DNA from: a virus
Lineage: Duplodnaviria; Caudoviricetes
Length of the DNA: 64,000 nt
IMG/VR virus record: IMGVR_UViG_3300037400_005963
Span: 64,001 to 128,000 of that record
Reading direction: 5' to 3' (one strand)
Shown here: positions 54,360 through 59,414 of the stretch, one piece after another
Layout of the letters: each line of letters starts with the position of its first letter
How positions within the stretch are numbered: position 1 is the first letter of the stretch
The notes under the pieces: generated by a model
Told to the model about the DNA's origin: nothing
The model's database searches: none
The model's input: the letters and a program-made list of their open reading frames with translations, nothing else
Program-made: the position numbers and the translations under genes

Positions 54360-54433
54360 TTTTCTTTAATTAAATTTTAAACATTATCAACTATAAGATT
54401 TTAAGGGGGATTAGAAATTACTTTTAAATATTT

Positions 54434-54563
54434 AAAAAAGTCGGAGATTTAGCTAAGAGTAGTTCAAGAATAAATAATTATTCAAGTGCACCTAACCACT
54501 CTTAACGTATCTCCTAGATATTCTAAAAATGAATATCGAATCCGCACTATAGCGAAATTCCTC
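54434..54563 (-). ncRNA. Structured ~130-nt small RNA candidate
   Basis: Promoter 54573-54563; hairpins CGC/GCG and GATATTC/GAATATC, long stem GGAGAT..TAAGAGTGGTT/AACTACTCTTA..ATCTCC, U-tract; the next gene has its own promoter at 54398. Confidence 0.5.
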
Positions 54564-54690
54564 ACATATAAGGAAACATTCAACCATTTAGAGGTGAATT
54601 GTGGATTTGAAATGGAAGAAAATCAGATAAAGTCCTATGTATCACCTTATTAGTAATAATATATAATTTCAAAACACAATAATATAAATA

Positions 54691-55455
54691 ATGAAGGAAG
54701 ATGAGTTAAAAAAAGATGGCGCTACTATTTATTGTATAATACAGCTAGCCTTTATTAATAATGTATTTCCAGACCTTTTTCATGAACTACAGAAAATTTC
54801 AGATAAAACTGAAGATTTAGATAAGAGTGTAGATCAAGTAGATGAGATGACTAATTCTGCTATGTCTGAAGTTTGTTTAGTAATGAAGTGGGGGAAAACC
54901 TTTTGTTTTTATGGTAGTAAGGGAAAAGCCGGAAGAACGAAAGCTTATGATACAAATTGTGGTGATTATAAGCCTGCTGCAGTTTTTAGCAGTTTAGATT
55001 CTAGAATAGAAGGAAAAATTCATAAAATATTAAGCGAACATCAACGTTCTGGTATTTTATACGGGAAAGGAATGATATTAGGAGAAAAAGTTGAATTTTA
55101 CAATGTAAACAAAAGTCTTTGGAGATTTTTGATTTATTTGATTAGAATATATAATAAAGGGAAAGGAAGAAAAGACTTAATGTCGTTCATTGACAATGTT
55201 TATAATGTATACGAAGCTTTTTCATATGAACCGGGAATAAAATTAAGTCTAGATTGTGCAGGAATTAAACTATCCAGCATTAGCGATGAATGTCTAAACG
55301 GTTGTATTAATATTAGAAAGAGAGCTCTTAAGATTATTGAAAAAATTCCAGGAGTAATGTCAAAGGTAGAAAATTGTATCAAAGAAGAAATTAAACTATG
55401 CGATGAAGAATCAAATAGGAGACAGATAAATAAACAAAAGGAGATTACTGATTAA
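54691..55455 (+). CDS. Hypothetical protein
   Basis: Promoter 54645. Confidence 0.65.
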   Translation: MKEDELKKDGATIYCIIQLAFINNVFPDLFHELQKISDKTEDLDKSVDQVDEMTNSAMSEVCLVMKWGKTFCFYGSKGKAGRTKAYDTNCGDYKPAAVFSSLDSRIEGKIHKILSEHQRSGILYGKGMILGEKVEFYNVNKSLWRFLIYLIRIYNKGKGRKDLMSFIDNVYNVYEAFSYEPGIKLSLDCAGIKLSSISDECLNGCINIRKRALKIIEKIPGVMSKVENCIKEEIKLCDEESNRRQINKQKEITD

Positions 55456-55590
55456 AGTAATCTCTTTTTCTTTAAATCCTTCGCCTAGTGAAGTAGTTCT
55501 CAACTGGTAATACTAGTATTCGATATAGTATTACAACTATTATAAAGATCGGAACTAATATCATTAATAGAAGTATAATCGGTACTTTCT

Positions 55591-55836
55591 TCATATTCCT
55601 TCATTAGTATCGCCTAAGCAATAACTCTTTTCTTGTTTATTAAGTTCTCTTAAGATTTTAATAGAATCTAATCGATCTTGCTGTTTTCTTCGAAATTCCC
55701 TATATTCTTGTATTCCGATAGTTTTTTCAATAGTGTCATTATTACATTCAGTAATAGCACAATTGGTCTCGCGTTGTTCACAGTTGCAAGAAATGCAAAT
55801 CAATAATAAAATAGTAAAAATAATTGTCTTTTTCAT
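55591..55836 (-). CDS. Small lipoprotein
   Basis: MKKTIIFTILLLICISC; promoter at 55874. Confidence 0.6.
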   Translation of the reverse strand: MKKTIIFTILLLICISCNCEQRETNCAITECNNDTIEKTIGIQEYREFRRKQQDRLDSIKILRELNKQEKSYCLGDTNEGI

Positions 55837-55929
55837 GTCTTTAAATTTTTGTTATCTTATTTATATATATAAGGGGATATCGGGCTAAATTATTTTTCCG
55901 TCCATATTTAACATAATACCCTTATATAT

Positions 55930-56917
55930 AGATAGATAAGTATATTAATATTTATCTGATCCACGTATCTGAAACGAATGATACTAACTTATATAAGCAT
56001 ACTAAAGGTGACTTGCGGGAACTTATATAAGGACAGCTGATTAAGGTGGAAATCAGGTTCGTTTGGGCGAACAGAAAATAGGCAAGTGCGTATAAAGAAT
56101 TTAGTTATGGAGAATTATACGTATAGGCCCAAAGCGTTAAAGGTTATGGAGACAAATTATTAGAGGCCCAGAATGCAACTAAACAATTATATTTATATAT
56201 GTTGCATAGGGCTTTATATAAAAATAAATAAATAAAAATAAACAGTTAAATTCGGAGAGAATTTAACATCGGCAATATGCGAAGAGGTGAAGAACTTCTT
56301 AGTGCAGTGCCAAAACCGAAGTAACTTAGATATCTAGGTGAACTTTGAAATGAGATTGATGAATTAACTGTATTATTCACTTTCTCAGAGTAGGAGGTCG
56401 GCGATATTTAGGGAGAAGAAATACAGCTTCTTATTATAGGAGAGTCTATATAGATCGAAGAGATACTTGCGAGGCCTATAATTAAATATCACAAATCCCA
56501 AGGAGAGAAACCTTAGGTAATATAAACTTTTATGAGACAATAACAAAAAAAAAACAATAACTATGAAAAATTTTAAACTTTACCAAGCGATTTGCTTGGT
56601 GCTGATGGCGGTATTTTATATTGCCGCAGTGTGGTCACATAATGAAGTGGCTACAAATATTGATTTAGCCCTTTTCGGGGCTTCATTCGCAGGCGTAATT
56701 ACCTGCCAAATCCTCAAATATAAAAAGAGGATTTCTTAAAAAAAACAACGGGTCTCCATACGTAAGTGTGGGGCCCGTATCTTAACAACCTTTATAACAC
56801 GTAACCTAAGAGGAATAAAATAACTTTTAGAACACAGGATTACCGGAGAGCGCTGCTCAAGACCGGTGCTCCCGCCCGTGTGAAGATATTGATACATTTA
56901 CTGTATCTTTATTTTTT
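55930..56917 (+). ncRNA. Large structured RNA candidate (~990 nt) with an embedded small ORF
   Basis: Promoter 55920-55930; 630 nt without an ORF but with many hairpins and pseudoknot-compatible pairings; terminator-like end 56891-56917. Confidence 0.6.
56563..56739 (+). CDS. 58-aa two-helix membrane protein (not in track)
   Basis: MKNFKLYQAICLVLMAVFYIAAVW...LALFGASFAGVITCQILKYKKRIS; strong A-rich start context. Confidence 0.6.
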   Translation: MKNFKLYQAICLVLMAVFYIAAVWSHNEVATNIDLALFGASFAGVITCQILKYKKRIS

Positions 56918-56975
56918 CAGTTTTCTAAGTACTTACTCCCTTATAATTGTAGAATTATAAAAATAATAATATATA

Positions 56976-57344
56976 ATGAAAAGAAATAAGTTAGATAATT
57001 TAATTGCGAAGTTGGTGAAAGAATTAGAGGCTTCGGAAGAATATCAAGATTTCAAAGAAGAAGTTTATGATACTTTGAAAAAAACGGTGGAAGAATATAG
57101 GGAAGGATCAAACGATACAATTGAGGAGATGTATGAAGAAATCTCATATCCGCCAATAGAAAGTATAAATTCATATGCTCAATCACTTACGGGTTTACTA
57201 GTTAAAGAAAATATATTAGACCCAAATAAACTAACAGATGAAGATAGAATGTATATTTCAGATCAGATTGCTTTATATTGGATAGAGGTAAGAAAAGAAA
57301 TGTGCAAAAAAATCTTGGGAATAAAAAAGAAAGGTGGAAATTAA
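56976..57344 (+). CDS. Acidic hypothetical protein
   Basis: Promoter 56939. Confidence 0.65.
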   Translation: MKRNKLDNLIAKLVKELEASEEYQDFKEEVYDTLKKTVEEYREGSNDTIEEMYEEISYPPIESINSYAQSLTGLLVKENILDPNKLTDEDRMYISDQIALYWIEVRKEMCKKILGIKKKGGN

Positions 57345-57358
57345 TTCCACCCTTATTT

Positions 57359-57553
57359 TTACTTTTTCTTTTTTACTTTATTTATGTCTTTAATTAACTT
57401 ATCATTAAGCGTATTCATTGCTTTGTAAAGTTTATCCCAAGATTTCTCATATTTAGTTCCTCGAAGATGCATACCTCCATGAATCATTTCATTTCCGCCC
57501 CTCATTATATGTTTCTGGGCAGATCTCAATTCTTGTTCATTTAACTCAATCAT
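57359..57553 (-). CDS. Hypothetical protein (start moved to MIELNE)
   Basis: ORF track. Confidence 0.55.
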   Translation of the reverse strand: MIELNEQELRSAQKHIMRGGNEMIHGGMHLRGTKYEKSWDKLYKAMNTLNDKLIKDINKVKKKK

Positions 57554-57633
57554 ACTATAAATAAAGTAATAAATAAAGTTTATAAAAATAGAGAGTACAA
57601 TATTTAGCATATTAGTACTCCCATTTAATTAAT

Positions 57634-58638
57634 TTATCTTACTACAACCGTTACGATTTGATGTCCAGTTGCTCCAAGACCTTCTGTAGATCCAATAGTT
57701 ATTCCGCGATTATACAAATAATCTGCAACAGCTTGAGCTCGTTCATTAGAGATTCTATCATTAGCTGCATCTGTACCGGGATAACTAGCTTCACCCTTAA
57801 TATCAACTACTACATTAGTTGGAATCTGATCCAATACGTTCATAGCTGCATTATCAAGGGTAGATTTGCCGTAATCAAATGCAACAACATATGTTTTGAT
57901 GGGTGCTTCGATCACACGATCCTTGTAAACAATCTTCTCTACTACTTGAGTAATAGTTTCAGGCTGTCTACTGCGGAGCTCATTTATCTGAGCATTTAGA
58001 AGATCTACTTCCTCTTGTGTATATTTATAGGGGCAAAGCTTAAACTCCTTGCCAAACTTATAACTAACACCAGCCATCAATCCATACCAAGCATTTCTAG
58101 AATCAAATCTTGGATAGGCGCCTGTTCTAGTACGAGTTAAGTTATAATTCAACTCTGGCACAATGTTAAGTTGGAATTTTGGAGTTAAATTAATATTAAA
58201 CTCAAGTTGCATCTTAGTAGATAGATCATTAGTTGGATGTTCTGAATAAAATCCATGTACCCAACCCGGTCCTACTGCTGCAACAACCTCGAACTTATCA
58301 GGGGTTCCTCGGAAACCATGAAATAGGTTGTTAAAATTTAACTTAGCTAAGGCGGAAACATTTACAAAGTTAACTACATGACCAGTCTGGAATGCACCAT
58401 ACTTTGATCCATTTTCCCAACCCATAGTACCATCAATTGCAACTCCAAAAGTAGGAGTAATCCAATGTGCATATTGCAATGAGGTTCCAGCTTGGATAGT
58501 GTGTCCCCAGTCTTCATAACCATTACAACCTGGGTGCATTAATGCAGTTACACCACCCTTAAGTGTTACTACTTCTTCTGCTCTTGCCATAGTAAACATG
58601 CTAACTAAGGCAATCAAACATAAAATAAACTTTTTCAT
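57634..58638 (-). CDS. OmpA-family outer-membrane protein (Bacteroidales type)
   Basis: Signal peptide, beta-barrel-like N-domain (GPGW, GVSYKFG), coiled linker, OmpA_C (FDYGKS...GEAS...N..IS.ERAQAVADYL). Confidence 0.85.
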   Translation of the reverse strand: MKKFILCLIALVSMFTMARAEEVVTLKGGVTALMHPGCNGYEDWGHTIQAGTSLQYAHWITPTFGVAIDGTMGWENGSKYGAFQTGHVVNFVNVSALAKLNFNNLFHGFRGTPDKFEVVAAVGPGWVHGFYSEHPTNDLSTKMQLEFNINLTPKFQLNIVPELNYNLTRTRTGAYPRFDSRNAWYGLMAGVSYKFGKEFKLCPYKYTQEEVDLLNAQINELRSRQPETITQVVEKIVYKDRVIEAPIKTYVVAFDYGKSTLDNAAMNVLDQIPTNVVVDIKGEASYPGTDAANDRISNERAQAVADYLYNRGITIGSTEGLGATGHQIVTVVVR

Positions 58639-58664: not shown

Positions 58665-59414
58665 TTATAATAACTCTTCTATTAGGATATCAAGGTGTTT
58701 TCCACACCATTCTATTTCCTTCATGTATTTATCTATATATTGGGGTTTTAATTTTTCAGAATCTGTTAATATATAATCTTTATAAAACCTTTGTGGAATT
58801 TCTGATTTTAATGTAAAATAGAAACTACTATCTTTATTATCAGGATCATATATTTCCATACAGTTACATTCTACTGTATTATCACCCATAAATGTTTTCT
58901 TATTCATGACAAGGTTTCCGGACCATACGGGAGTTATTTTATCCAGATCCTTGTCATAAATTAGACATATACCGGAAAAAGTAGACTGAGGATTATCATA
59001 CTCAAAAGACTTGGTTTTCAAATTATATTTTGTTCCGTTTACTTTCCAGGTAATTGCATCTATATCCACTACCATATTTTCTCTAAGATATAGAAATATA
59101 TTACTTAGTCTTTTATTTTGTCTAATTAATTCTCCGATCGTTTCAAATTCGGGTCCCCATTCATCATCTTCAAATGTTAAAGGTGATAGGATTTTATATC
59201 TAGCTGCTCTATTAAATATAGACAATGAGGGATAAAGACTAGTTCCCGTGTGTCTTTGCAAACCCAGCAGACCAAGTAGATCTAATACATTCTTATCCAC
59301 TTTACTAGTGTCCGTTCCTAGTTCATTCAGATAATGTTTTACAAAAGAACTATCTCTATAAGCTCTCCTCATGATGGGAAGCGCAACTTTCTCAAATAGA
59401 TATTTTTTAATCAT
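58665..59414 (-). CDS. Phage protein, paralog of 33944..34726
   Basis: KILSPLTF, QNKRLS, DIDAITW, TFMG. Confidence 0.7.
   Translation of the reverse strand: MIKKYLFEKVALPIMRRAYRDSSFVKHYLNELGTDTSKVDKNVLDLLGLLGLQRHTGTSLYPSLSIFNRAARYKILSPLTFEDDEWGPEFETIGELIRQNKRLSNIFLYLRENMVVDIDAITWKVNGTKYNLKTKSFEYDNPQSTFSGICLIYDKDLDKITPVWSGNLVMNKKTFMGDNTVECNCMEIYDPDNKDSSFYFTLKSEIPQRFYKDYILTDSEKLKPQYIDKYMKEIEWCGKHLDILIEELL

What the first reader, a model, noticed from the sequence alone, without database searches (positions are those of the whole stretch)
55930..56917. ~1-kb ornate RNA with pseudoknots that wraps around a small membrane-protein ORF
Seen: one promoter-to-terminator unit, about 80% non-coding in a gene-dense genome. 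Local hairpins include GTATC/GATAC, CTGATT/AATCAG, GTTCG/CGAAC, ATGCAAC/GTTGCAT, GTTAAATTC-GGAGA-GAATTTAAC, a GTAA-capped hairpin at 56748-56778 and ACCGG/CCGGT. Loop pairings include TTTGGGC 56062-56068 with GCCCAAA 56127-56133, and GTGGA with TCCAC. Complementarities spanning the ORF are TATGGAGAC 56145/GTCTCCATA 56752, AAAGGTT/AACCTTT 56787, CTTAGGT 56512/ACCTAAG 56804 and GCGGGA 56015/TCCCGC 56870. Known: phages carry large ornate ncRNAs (GOLLD, ROOL) of unclear function. Inference: a new large ncRNA or ribozyme-derived class, or an elaborate switch controlling a toxic membrane peptide.
Basis: partly seen in the sequence, partly recalled or inferred. Interest (0 to 1): 0.8.

Follow-up and report, generated by a model that had tools for sequence, protein, structure and literature searches.

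The report
New large knotted RNA of gut jumbo phages
A giant cattle-gut phage and its relatives, including the abundant human-gut "Jug" phages, carry a roughly 590-base protein-less gene whose RNA folds into an elaborate, evolutionarily conserved shape held by several knots; it matches no catalogued RNA family, is found in RNA libraries, and does not wrap around the small membrane-protein gene next to it as first thought.

Summary
Real and new, but smaller than described. The conserved unit is a non-coding RNA of about 590 nt, from about 55940 to 56520 on the + strand. It is not the 1-kb unit that encloses the ORF.

Nine homologues were found in related jumbo phages, including Jug phages. On six of them, 94.7% of pair cells form pairs and 74 of 130 pairs carry compensatory double changes (0 of 500 shuffles reach this).

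Four tertiary contacts were examined:
- A third pseudoknot (ACUUGC 56011 with GCAAGU 56082) covaries at every position across nine sequences.
- A 7-bp kissing loop shows one compensatory change, in the Jug sequences.

No Rfam 15 family matches. Contigs from RNA libraries of four independent studies cover the RNA but not its flanks.

The four complementarities that span the ORF are near chance level. Their 3' partners are missing in seven of nine homologues.

Small membrane-protein genes follow the RNA in most phages, but they are not one family.

One hairpin-pseudoknot module resembles the pistol ribozyme core, but it lacks P3 and has a different strand topology.

Function is unknown. My best guess is a fold-dependent RNA particle of the ROOL/GOLLD/OLE kind.

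The parts
55893..55931 (+). Promoter-type motif: TTTTTCCGTCC (55893-55903), a spacer, then CCCTTATATATAG (55919-55931)
   Evidence: It is conserved upstream of the RNA in all homologues. About ten copies of CCTTATATATR with a T-rich upstream part occur in the 156-kb record, including a divergent partner at 55874 on the - strand. RNA-library contigs begin at 55943-55963. Its function as a promoter is inferred.
55960..56137 (+). 5' domain: a triple-pseudoknot fold.
- Hairpins: P1 55965-69/55980-84; Pa 55988-97/56022-31; P3 56037-42/56051-56; P4 56057-61/56068-72; P5 56088-91/56119-22.
- Pseudoknots: PK-A 55960-64/56046-50; PK-B 56011-16/56082-87; PK-C 56062-67/56128-33.
- Invariant single strands: AAAGGUG 56004-10, GGGAA 56017-21, AAAAUAG 56075-81, GCGU 56134-37.
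   Evidence: Pair counts are: PK-B has 4 of 6 pairs with double changes and 100% of cells paired; PK-C has 2 of 6; PK-A has 2 of 5. An anchor-based check over nine sequences gave 6 of 6 bp (PK-B) and 7 of 7 bp (PK-C, 5 in L071) in cognate partners. A blind helix scan recovered the same helices. In four RNA libraries, whole contigs span 55943/50/54/63 to 56136/37/37/42.
56138..56244 (+). Junction and variable middle: a conserved single-stranded motif UUAAAGGUUAUGGAGACAAAUUA (56138-56160), a variable hairpin insert (GAGGCCC..ATGCAAC/GTTGCAT..GGGCUUU) and an A-rich linker
   Evidence: Length and sequence vary between homologues. The span is 107 nt here and longer in L068, which also carries extra inserts in the 5' domain. 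The AAAGGUU..GGA(G/C)ACA motif is kept in 7 of 9.
56245..56517 (+). 3' domain.
- P7 56245-53/56259-67.
- P8 56271-74/56308-11, with an inner hairpin 56282-88/56294-300.
- P9 56324-29/56334-39.
- P10 56340-46/56393-99, with 56351-55/56383-87 and 56360-64/56375-79.
- Kissing loop CUGUAUU 56368-74 with AAUACAG 56420-26.
- P11 56403-10/56483-90, with 56413-18/56427-32 and 56433-40/56475-82.
- Terminal hairpin P12 56497-503/56511-17, with the conserved loop AGAGAAA.
   Evidence: Helices 9-22 mostly have 3-9 pairs with double changes. The kissing loop is invariant in the six close sequences. It is CUGUAUA/UAUACAG in the Jug sequences, one compensatory change. P12 is followed by a run of 8-10 U in L045, L047 and L062, but only UUUU here. 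RNA contigs cover 56174-56471 (X14) and 56286-56540 (X16).
56528..56562 (+). Leader of the small ORF: UUUUAUGAGACAAUAAC followed by an A-rich tract
   Evidence: The GA(G/C)ACA(A/U)UAA motif lies 27-37 nt before the AUG of most small ORFs downstream of the RNA in L043, L068, L070 and L071. One copy also sits inside the RNA at 56149. This is the only clear leader-type copy in the 156-kb record.
56563..56739 (+). 58-aa gene for a protein with two hydrophobic segments. It neighbours the conserved RNA and is not part of it.
   Evidence: ORF. An orthologue of 59 aa is present in L043, with many third-position-type differences. No PHROG or Pfam function was found. No RNA-library contig lay on it, which is not evidence of silence.
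56740..56917 (+). 3' trailer of the ORF: GTAA-capped hairpin 56748-78, conserved block ACCTTTATAACACGTAACC (56787-56805), hairpin ACCGG/CCGGT, and a terminator-like GATAC/GTATC plus T-run (56891-56917)
   Evidence: It is shared only with L043, at about 76% identity over the ORF-plus-trailer alignment. There the first hairpin is replaced by a GGGTCT/AGACCC plus T-run terminator, and the last hairpin covaries as GAATA/TATTC. It is absent from the other seven homologues.

Best explanation
Window positions from about 55940 to about 56520 (+) are the gene of a previously uncatalogued, two-domain structured non-coding RNA of about 590 nt. It reaches about 750 nt in the Jug phages.

Shown:
- It is ORF-free and lies directly behind a conserved promoter-type motif. 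That it is transcribed from this motif is inferred from the RNA-library contigs, which start 12-32 nt downstream of it.
- It is conserved in at least seven distinct sequence lineages of related jumbo phages.
- Its helices, three pseudoknots and a loop-loop contact are maintained by compensatory changes.
- It appears in RNA libraries where the flanking DNA does not.

Inferred:
- It works through its three-dimensional fold, as an RNA particle or RNP acting during infection. This is the same kind of thing as the phage-borne ROOL and GOLLD RNAs or OLE RNA, possibly self-associating through its conserved 7-bp loop-loop complementarity. It does not work by antisense pairing or by folding back over the neighbouring ORF.
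- The compact 5' domain (55960-56137) probably accumulates as a separate nuclease-resistant piece of about 190 nt. Read-through past the weak terminal hairpin would feed the small membrane-protein gene(s) downstream.
For: Coding and known families:
- No ORF under any stop reassignment.
- No Rfam family at gathering score in the window, and none at E <= 10 in the 1.4 kb apart from chance-level hits. The ROOL model finds nothing in the whole record.

Strand and fold:
- The + strand folds at z = -10.7, the - strand at -4.3.
- G-U pairs fixed in all sequences (for example columns 224/268 and 575/594) fit only the + strand.

Homologues:
- L043, L044/L061, L045, L047/L048 and L062 were found by nhmmer.
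- L068, L070 and L071 were found with covariance model R1 in whole phage records.
- 17 IMG/VR Jug contigs carry an exact 31-nt piece of the 3' domain.

Structure:
- 130 pairs, 94.7% of cells paired, 74 pairs with changes on both sides. None of 500 shuffles reaches this, and slid controls give 35-41% paired with 10-16 such pairs.
- PK-B and PK-C are fully complementary in cognate partners across nine sequences, with 7 and 4-5 different helix sequences respectively.
- A blind scan of the nine-sequence alignment recovers the same helices.

Expression:
- Contigs of four bovine-gut RNA libraries from four studies lie on 55943-56142. Two of the libraries also cover 56174-56540.
- The same runs gave no contig on 54832-55839 or 56560-57560. 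That pattern is hard to explain by DNA carry-over.
Against: - Function is not shown, and no partner, target or activity was found.
- The RNA evidence is from assembled contigs, which cannot give ends, strand or level.
- The common contig stop at 56136-56142 is only a weak hint of processing.
- The set is nine sequences in about seven lineages, which is too few for an R-scape-type test.
- Small membrane-protein genes follow the RNA in most loci, so a cis-acting role is not excluded.
- ROOL and GOLLD usually sit near tRNA genes. No tRNA is near here or in the related loci.
Confidence: 0.55

Rival explanations
1. Cis-acting leader. The 590-nt fold is a sensor or attenuator placed before an operon of small membrane proteins. 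The terminal hairpin P12 acts as a regulated terminator, so the RNA decides whether transcription or translation continues into those genes.
For: - In 7 of 9 loci the first ORF 40-90 nt behind P12, on the same strand, is a hydrophobic protein of 36-74 aa. L068, L070 and L071 carry arrays of them.
- P12 has a U-run in three lineages and a weak one elsewhere, and its loop AGAGAA is conserved, which is unusual for a plain terminator.
- In one RNA library a contig of a strain variant runs 56 nt past 56540.
- A leader motif (GAGACAAUAA) recurs inside the RNA.
Against: - The downstream genes are not one family. L062 has an acidic 86-aa ORF, L047 a 163-aa one and L043 a 153-aa one directly behind the RNA.
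- No alternative pairing competes with P12.
- Leaders this large and this knotted are not known for such genes.
- Where there is a strong U-run the RNA looks like a stand-alone gene.
Confidence: 0.22
2. Ribozyme with a rearranged pistol-type core. Four parts of the RNA would rebuild the pistol active site: P4 with PK-C, the AAAAUAG linker, the strand after the linker (PK-B), and UAG..GCGU. The invariant AAGGUG just 5' of the partner strand (56005-56010) would be the substrate. The RNA would cut itself or another RNA.
For: - The Rfam Pistol model gives the only ribozyme hit, at 16.8 bits (E = 0.36 on 141 nt), on 56057-56111.
- Read against the Rfam consensus line, every strongly conserved pistol block has an invariant counterpart here: UCG..CGA of P1, a fully paired 6-7-nt loop pseudoknot, the AAAUA linker, a covarying helix that starts right after the linker, UAG before and GCGU after the 3' pseudoknot strand, and GGU next to the partner strand.
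- Pistol ribozymes occur in phages and in the Bacteroidota bacterium Alistipes (PMC4604425).
Against: - No P3 hairpin with the strictly 2-nt junction could be found, and candidate pairings do not covary (read).
- The partner strand of the P2-like helix lies upstream, inside a hairpin loop. This is neither the pistol topology nor a simple circular permutation.
- The score is half the gathering score. There is no Pistol hit in L068, L070 or L071.
- RNA-library contigs of four studies run uninterrupted across 56008/56009.
Confidence: 0.1
3. One transcript of about 1 kb has 5' and 3' parts that pair across the ORF, a fold-back of the kind in hok mRNA, to lock translation of a toxic membrane peptide.
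For: - UUAAAGGUU-AUGGAGAC (56138-56153) can pair with AACCUUUA (56787) and GUCUCCAU (56752) on either side of a hairpin.
- A 19-nt block around AACCUUUA is the best conserved part of the trailer in L043.
Against: - The complementarities are near chance level.
- The trailer is absent from seven of nine homologues, although the 5' partner motif is conserved in them.
- The change in L043 is uncompensated, and a 153-aa ORF is inserted there.
- Two of the four 5' partners are used by covarying local helices.
Confidence: 0.03

Closest known systems
ROOL and GOLLD RNAs (Rfam RF03087 and the GOLLD family; cryo-EM in PMC12286853)
   Same: - Phage-borne, 580-800 nt, with many pseudoknots.
- Conserved domains joined by a variable or disordered linker.
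- A conserved kissing loop. In ROOL a loop contact first read as tertiary turned out to be between molecules.
- Function unknown. ROOL env-120 also comes from cow rumen.
   Different: - No sequence or structure match.
- Not next to tRNA genes.
- The hosts are phages of Bacteroidales (host as predicted in PMC12880540).
- Oligomerisation is untested.
Pistol self-cleaving ribozyme (Rfam RF02679; PMC4604425)
   Same: - A 5-bp hairpin with UCG..CGA, whose 6-7-nt loop pairs fully with a downstream strand.
- An A-rich AAAUA(G) linker, and a covarying helix that starts right after the linker.
- UAG before and GCGU after the pseudoknot strand, and GGU beside the partner strand.
   Different: - No P3 and no 2-nt GU junction.
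- The partner strand is upstream, inside another hairpin's loop.
- An extra hairpin (P5) is inserted.
- The module is embedded in an RNA of about 590 nt.
- The score is below the family cut-off, and there is no sign of cleavage in the RNA contigs.
OLE RNA with its membrane protein OapA (PMC11332333, PMC12054373; the gene adjacency is from my own knowledge)
   Same: An ornate RNA of about 600 nt whose gene sits next to a gene for a membrane protein. OLE is held at the membrane as an RNP.
   Different: - No match to the OLE model.
- The small membrane proteins here are not conserved as one family.
- No binding has been shown.
- It is encoded by a phage, not by Bacillota.
hok/sok-type mRNAs with fold-back inhibition (from my own knowledge)
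   Same: A small hydrophobic ORF with long structured untranslated parts.
   Different: The 5'-3' pairing is not conserved, no antisense RNA gene was seen, and the structured part is an independent conserved RNA.

Membership tests
Pistol ribozyme (RF02679) | Score at or above the Rfam gathering score (34.5 bits) | tested here: not met
   16.8 bits on 56057-56111. No hit in L068, L070 or L071.
Pistol ribozyme (RF02679) | P1 hairpin whose loop forms a pseudoknot with a downstream junction, supported by covariation | tested here: met
   P4 56057-61/56068-72 with PK-C 56062-67/56128-33. Four to five different complementary versions occur in nine sequences.
Pistol ribozyme (RF02679) | P2 and P3 stems with the pseudoknot strand between their left shoulders, and a strictly 2-nt (GU) junction between their right shoulders, where cleavage occurs (PMC4604425) | tested here: not met
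   A P2-like helix exists (PK-B), but its partner lies upstream in a hairpin loop. No covarying P3 was found, and GGU is followed by one more unpaired G.
Pistol ribozyme (RF02679) | Self-cleavage | not testable with these tools
   Only assembled RNA contigs are available. They run across the candidate site.
ROOL (RF03087) | Match to the family covariance model | tested here: not met
   No match at E <= 10 in the 1.4-kb stretch or in the whole 156-kb record. In that second search the control genomes also gave nothing.
GOLLD, OLE, HEARO, raiA, group I and II introns, RNase P, tmRNA, 6S (all Rfam 15 families) | Match to any family model | tested here: not met
   cmscan of 4227 families found nothing at gathering score in 64 kb. 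Permissive filters on 55700-57100 gave only chance-level hits (snoRNA, CrcZ on the A-rich leader, Pistol at 16.8 bits).
Large ornate phage ncRNAs as a kind (not a sequence family) | More than 500 nt, non-coding, many covarying helices and pseudoknots, phage-encoded, expressed | tested here: met
Type I toxin mRNA with fold-back inhibition | Conserved 5'-3' pairing enclosing the toxin ORF | tested here: not met
   The pairing is near chance level and the partner is missing in 7 of 9 homologues.

The most novel reading that the evidence does not exclude
The RNA and the small basic-tailed membrane proteins encoded right behind it form a membrane-anchored RNP. This would be a phage counterpart of the OLE RNA-OapA particle, in which the knotted 5' domain (with its pistol-like core) is the working part. 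A variant of this reading is that the RNA self-assembles through its loop-loop complementarity into a multimer, like ROOL and GOLLD.
Probability: 0.15. Interest if true: 0.85.

Novelty: new variant of a known kind. Interest (0 to 1): 0.74.

Why it matters
Large, intricately folded RNAs without a known job are rare. OLE, GOLLD, ROOL, HEARO and raiA are the main examples, and each has repaid study with ribozyme-like complexity, RNA-only cages or RNA-guided enzymes.

This one adds a class from a different host group: phages of Bacteroidales. It sits in the Jug phages, which were reported to make up about 1.1% of human gut metagenome reads and to be highly transcribed (PMC12880540). That paper does not contain the words ncRNA, non-coding, structured RNA, intergenic or Rfam.

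The RNA has a compact triple-pseudoknot domain of about 180 nt. That size suits crystallography or cryo-EM, and several sequence blocks resemble the pistol ribozyme core. This makes a concrete question testable: was a small ribozyme fold reused inside a large RNA?

For genome annotation, it explains a gene-free gap of 0.6-1.2 kb in these phages.

Tried and rejected
- Alternative genetic codes (TAG=Q, table 4, TAA=Q) opened no frame.
- GenBank phages: blastn 'distant' found no match.
- Single-protein scans of viral contigs with the ATPase and the 58-aa ORF found nothing.
- The 40 Jug loci fetched through the ATPase alignment have no RNA homologue beside the ATPase. In Jug phages the RNA lies elsewhere.
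- The exact pattern GTTCGTYTRGGCGAACAGAAAAT gave 0 hits in viral contigs.
- More distant ATPase relatives (P0009, P0011, P0015, P0017, P0003, P0006, P0008) have no homologue within the flanks.
Most Jug records are not held for CM search.
- The 3'-domain model R2 gave only marginal hits in G001, G003, G004, G005 and G008. The best one (G004, 24 bits) lies in coding sequence with no 5' domain nearby, so I rejected it.
- A pistol-like P2 between 56080-83 and 56308-11 was considered. The local hairpin 56271-74/56308-11 fits better in L047, L044 and the Jug sequences, so I rejected it (read).
- A P3 between GUUAUG (56143) and CAUAC (55998) shows no covariation, so I rejected it.
- No RNA-library contig lay on the ORF, the trailer or the flanks. 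For the ORF and trailer I take this only as 'not seen'.
- PHROG and Pfam searches of the neighbours and small ORFs gave no function bearing on the RNA.
- There are no tRNA genes nearby.
- Literature searches found no description of this RNA.

Full report
**What is at the coordinates.**
The window is bases 64001-128000 of a 156.5-kb IMG/VR virus record estimated to be 42% complete, so it is a jumbo phage. Runs that hold the stretch are bovine-gut metagenomes.

Between the divergent 81-aa ORF (55591-55836, - strand) and the 58-aa ORF (56563-56739, + strand) lie 726 bases with no frame. That holds under table 11 and under TAG, TGA or TAA reassignment.

As RNA, the + strand of 55930-56917 folds at -285.5 kcal/mol, z = -10.7 against dinucleotide shuffles. 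The - strand gives only z = -4.3.

Rfam 15 gives nothing at gathering score in the whole window. At E <= 10 there are only chance-level hits:
- a CrcZ hit on the A-rich leader of the ORF;
- a 16.8-bit Pistol hit at 56057-56111.

**Homologues define the real unit.**
The MoxR-type ATPase 1.6 kb away has many relatives. Contigs that encode its closest relatives (60-97% identity) all contain a homologue of window bases from about 55911 to about 56560, and of nothing beyond that. These are L043, L044, L045, L047 and L048/49. One scan of JGI metagenomes with a conserved pattern added L061 (the same as L044) and L062.

A covariance model of the 5' domain (R1), run on whole IMG/VR records, found more distant copies at another genomic place:
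- in two near-complete Jug-type phages (L068 in a 367-kb record, L071 in a 363-kb record);
- in a 47-kb fragment (L070).

An exact 31-nt piece of the 3' domain occurs in 17 IMG/VR Jug contigs. These fall into three variants. One of them joins an L071-like 5' domain to an L068-like 3' domain.

Other large phages with a related ATPase gave no credible match. This includes two complete records of 401 and 306 kb.

The ORF and the 178-nt trailer are shared only with L043. There a 153-aa ORF is inserted between the RNA and the small ORF. So the conserved element is the RNA alone, about 590 nt here and about 750 nt in L068.

**Structure.**
RNAalifold on six sequences predicts 118 pairs, 65 of them with compensatory changes. 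I then removed a few local pairs and added four tertiary helices. That structure has 130 pairs in 22 helices:
- 94.7% of cells are paired and 74 pairs have changes on both sides;
- no shuffle out of 500 reaches this;
- sliding the partners by 1-3 columns drops pairing to 35-41% and such pairs to 10-16.

- UUUGGG(C)/(G)CCCAAA becomes UCUAGGC/GCCUAGA, GCUUGGC/GCCGAGC and UCAGAAC/GUUCUGA in other lineages.
- UCCAC/GUGGA becomes UCAU/AUGA in L044.

The six bases after the invariant AAGGUG (ACUUGC, 56011-16) pair with the six bases after the AAAAUAG linker (GCAAGU, 56082-87). This helix has seven different, always perfectly complementary sequences in nine homologues. It is the top hit of a blind scan, with 6 of 6 pairs covarying.

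In the 3' domain, two hairpin loops carry CUGUAUU and AAUACAG. They are invariant in the close set and read CUGUAUA/UAUACAG in the Jug phages.

Several G-U pairs are fixed in all sequences. They would be A-C mismatches on the other strand, so the RNA is the + strand.

**Expression.**
Only assembled contigs of older runs were available. In four bovine-gut RNA libraries from four studies, whole contigs lie on the 5' domain:
- X14: 55954-56136
- X16: 55950-56137
- X18: 55943-56142
- X20: 55963-56137

Two libraries also cover the 3' domain: 56174-56471 (X14) and 56286-56540 (X16). None covers 54832-55839 or 56560-57560. The OmpA-like gene at 57634-58638 is covered in three of the four.

That patchy pattern argues for RNA rather than carried-over DNA. 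Contigs of L044-like relatives are present as well.

The shared stop just after the last tertiary helix (GCG/U at 56136-37) is a weak hint. It suggests the knotted 5' domain persists as a trimmed, nuclease-resistant piece. Raw reads are needed to test that.

The contig starts fit a transcript beginning about 10 nt after the conserved motif CCCTTATATATAG. That motif precedes the RNA in every homologue. It occurs about ten times in the record, including in front of small RNA genes noted by other readers.

**The ORF-spanning pairings.**
They exist as letters but do not stand up:
- There are 20 complementary 7-mers between the RNA and the trailer, against 9.0 +/- 4.5 in shuffles. Many are A/T runs.
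- A third of shuffles reach a 9-mer.
- CTTAGGT is the 3' strand of the covarying terminal hairpin. GCGGGA overlaps pseudoknot B and the invariant GGGA.
- The conserved motif UUAAAGGUUAUGGAGACA is kept in seven of nine homologues, of which five have no trailer.
- The single change in L043 (GAGAC to GACAC) is not compensated.

**Context.**
In seven of nine loci the first same-strand ORF behind the RNA is a hydrophobic protein of 36-74 aa. Three loci have arrays of such genes. These proteins are not recognisably one family and match no functional PHROG.

Most of these ORFs are preceded, 27-37 nt before the AUG, by GA(G/C)ACA(A/U)UAA placed just after a hairpin. One copy of the same motif lies inside the RNA, right behind the 5' domain. 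The 156-kb record has only this one clear leader-type copy. This links the RNA and the small genes in some way: a shared processing or start signal, or a shared binding site. I could not tell which.

**What it resembles.**
- By kind, it belongs with the large ornate phage RNAs ROOL and GOLLD. These also have conserved domains around a variable linker and conserved kissing loops, some of which turned out to be intermolecular (PMC12286853). It is not a member of either family, and it is not near tRNA genes.
- The adjacency to membrane-protein genes recalls OLE RNA.
- The module P4, PK-C, linker, PK-B strand and UAG..GCGU resembles the pistol core block by block (Rfam consensus; features in PMC4604425).
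- Against pistol membership, the P3 stem and the 2-nt junction are missing and the strand order differs. The score is half the cut-off, distant homologues give no Pistol hit, and RNA contigs cross the would-be cleavage site.
- I therefore treat the pistol likeness as a lead, not as membership.

**Verdict.**
This is a real, expressed, conserved and uncatalogued large structured RNA of Jug-type jumbo phages. Its function is open.

I put about 55% on a fold-dependent RNA particle acting in trans, 22% on a cis-acting leader of the small membrane-protein genes, 10% on a pistol-derived ribozyme and 3% on the fold-back switch. The remaining share goes to none of these.

Noticed in passing
window 56149-56158 and 56534-56543; L068, L070, L071, L043 (positions): The motif GA(G/C)ACA(A/U)UAA, often extended to ..UAUUAACAA, sits just after a hairpin and 27-37 nt before the AUG of most small ORFs behind the RNA. 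One copy lies inside the RNA, right after the 5' domain. It could be a shared processing site, start site or protein-binding site. It is rare elsewhere in the 156-kb record.
   Followed up: partly
window 55862-55931: A divergent pair of the phage's promoter-type motif (CCTTATATAT on both strands, at 55874 on - and 55920 on +) drives the 81-aa ORF and the RNA in opposite directions. About ten such motifs occur in the record, several of them before ORF-free small RNA units.
   Followed up: partly
L043 3322-3783 (- strand of the locus): In the 92%-identical relative, a 153-aa ORF with no Pfam family is inserted between the RNA and the small membrane-protein gene. This shows that the two are separable.
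   Followed up: partly
L087 455-1093, against L071 and L068: The Jug phage copies are mosaic. The commonest variant has the 5' domain of the L071 type and the 3' domain of the L068 type, which suggests recombination in the variable middle.
   Followed up: partly
window 56079-56092 against 56124-56137: UAGGCAAGUGCGU and UAGGCCCAAAGCGU are near-repeats 45 nt apart, and both end in GCGU. The Rfam Pistol model aligned the first one, but the covarying pseudoknot uses the second.
   Followed up: no
window 56787-56805: The block ACCTTTATAACACGTAACC in the ORF's trailer is 18 of 19 identical in L043, while its surroundings are about 70% identical. It loosely resembles the CCTTATATA promoter element, so the last roughly 110 nt could be a separate small transcription unit with its own covarying terminator.
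   Followed up: no
window 58665-59414 (-) and 57634-58638 (-): A Tad3-like protein (anti-Thoeris family PF25185, E = 1e-13) and an OmpA-domain protein lie 1-2 kb downstream. The OmpA gene is covered by contigs of three RNA libraries.
   Followed up: no
window 54417-54692: RNA-library contigs of relatives touch the ORF-free stretch where another reader noted a small structured RNA (54434-54563). The pieces are short and run on into unlike sequence.
   Followed up: no
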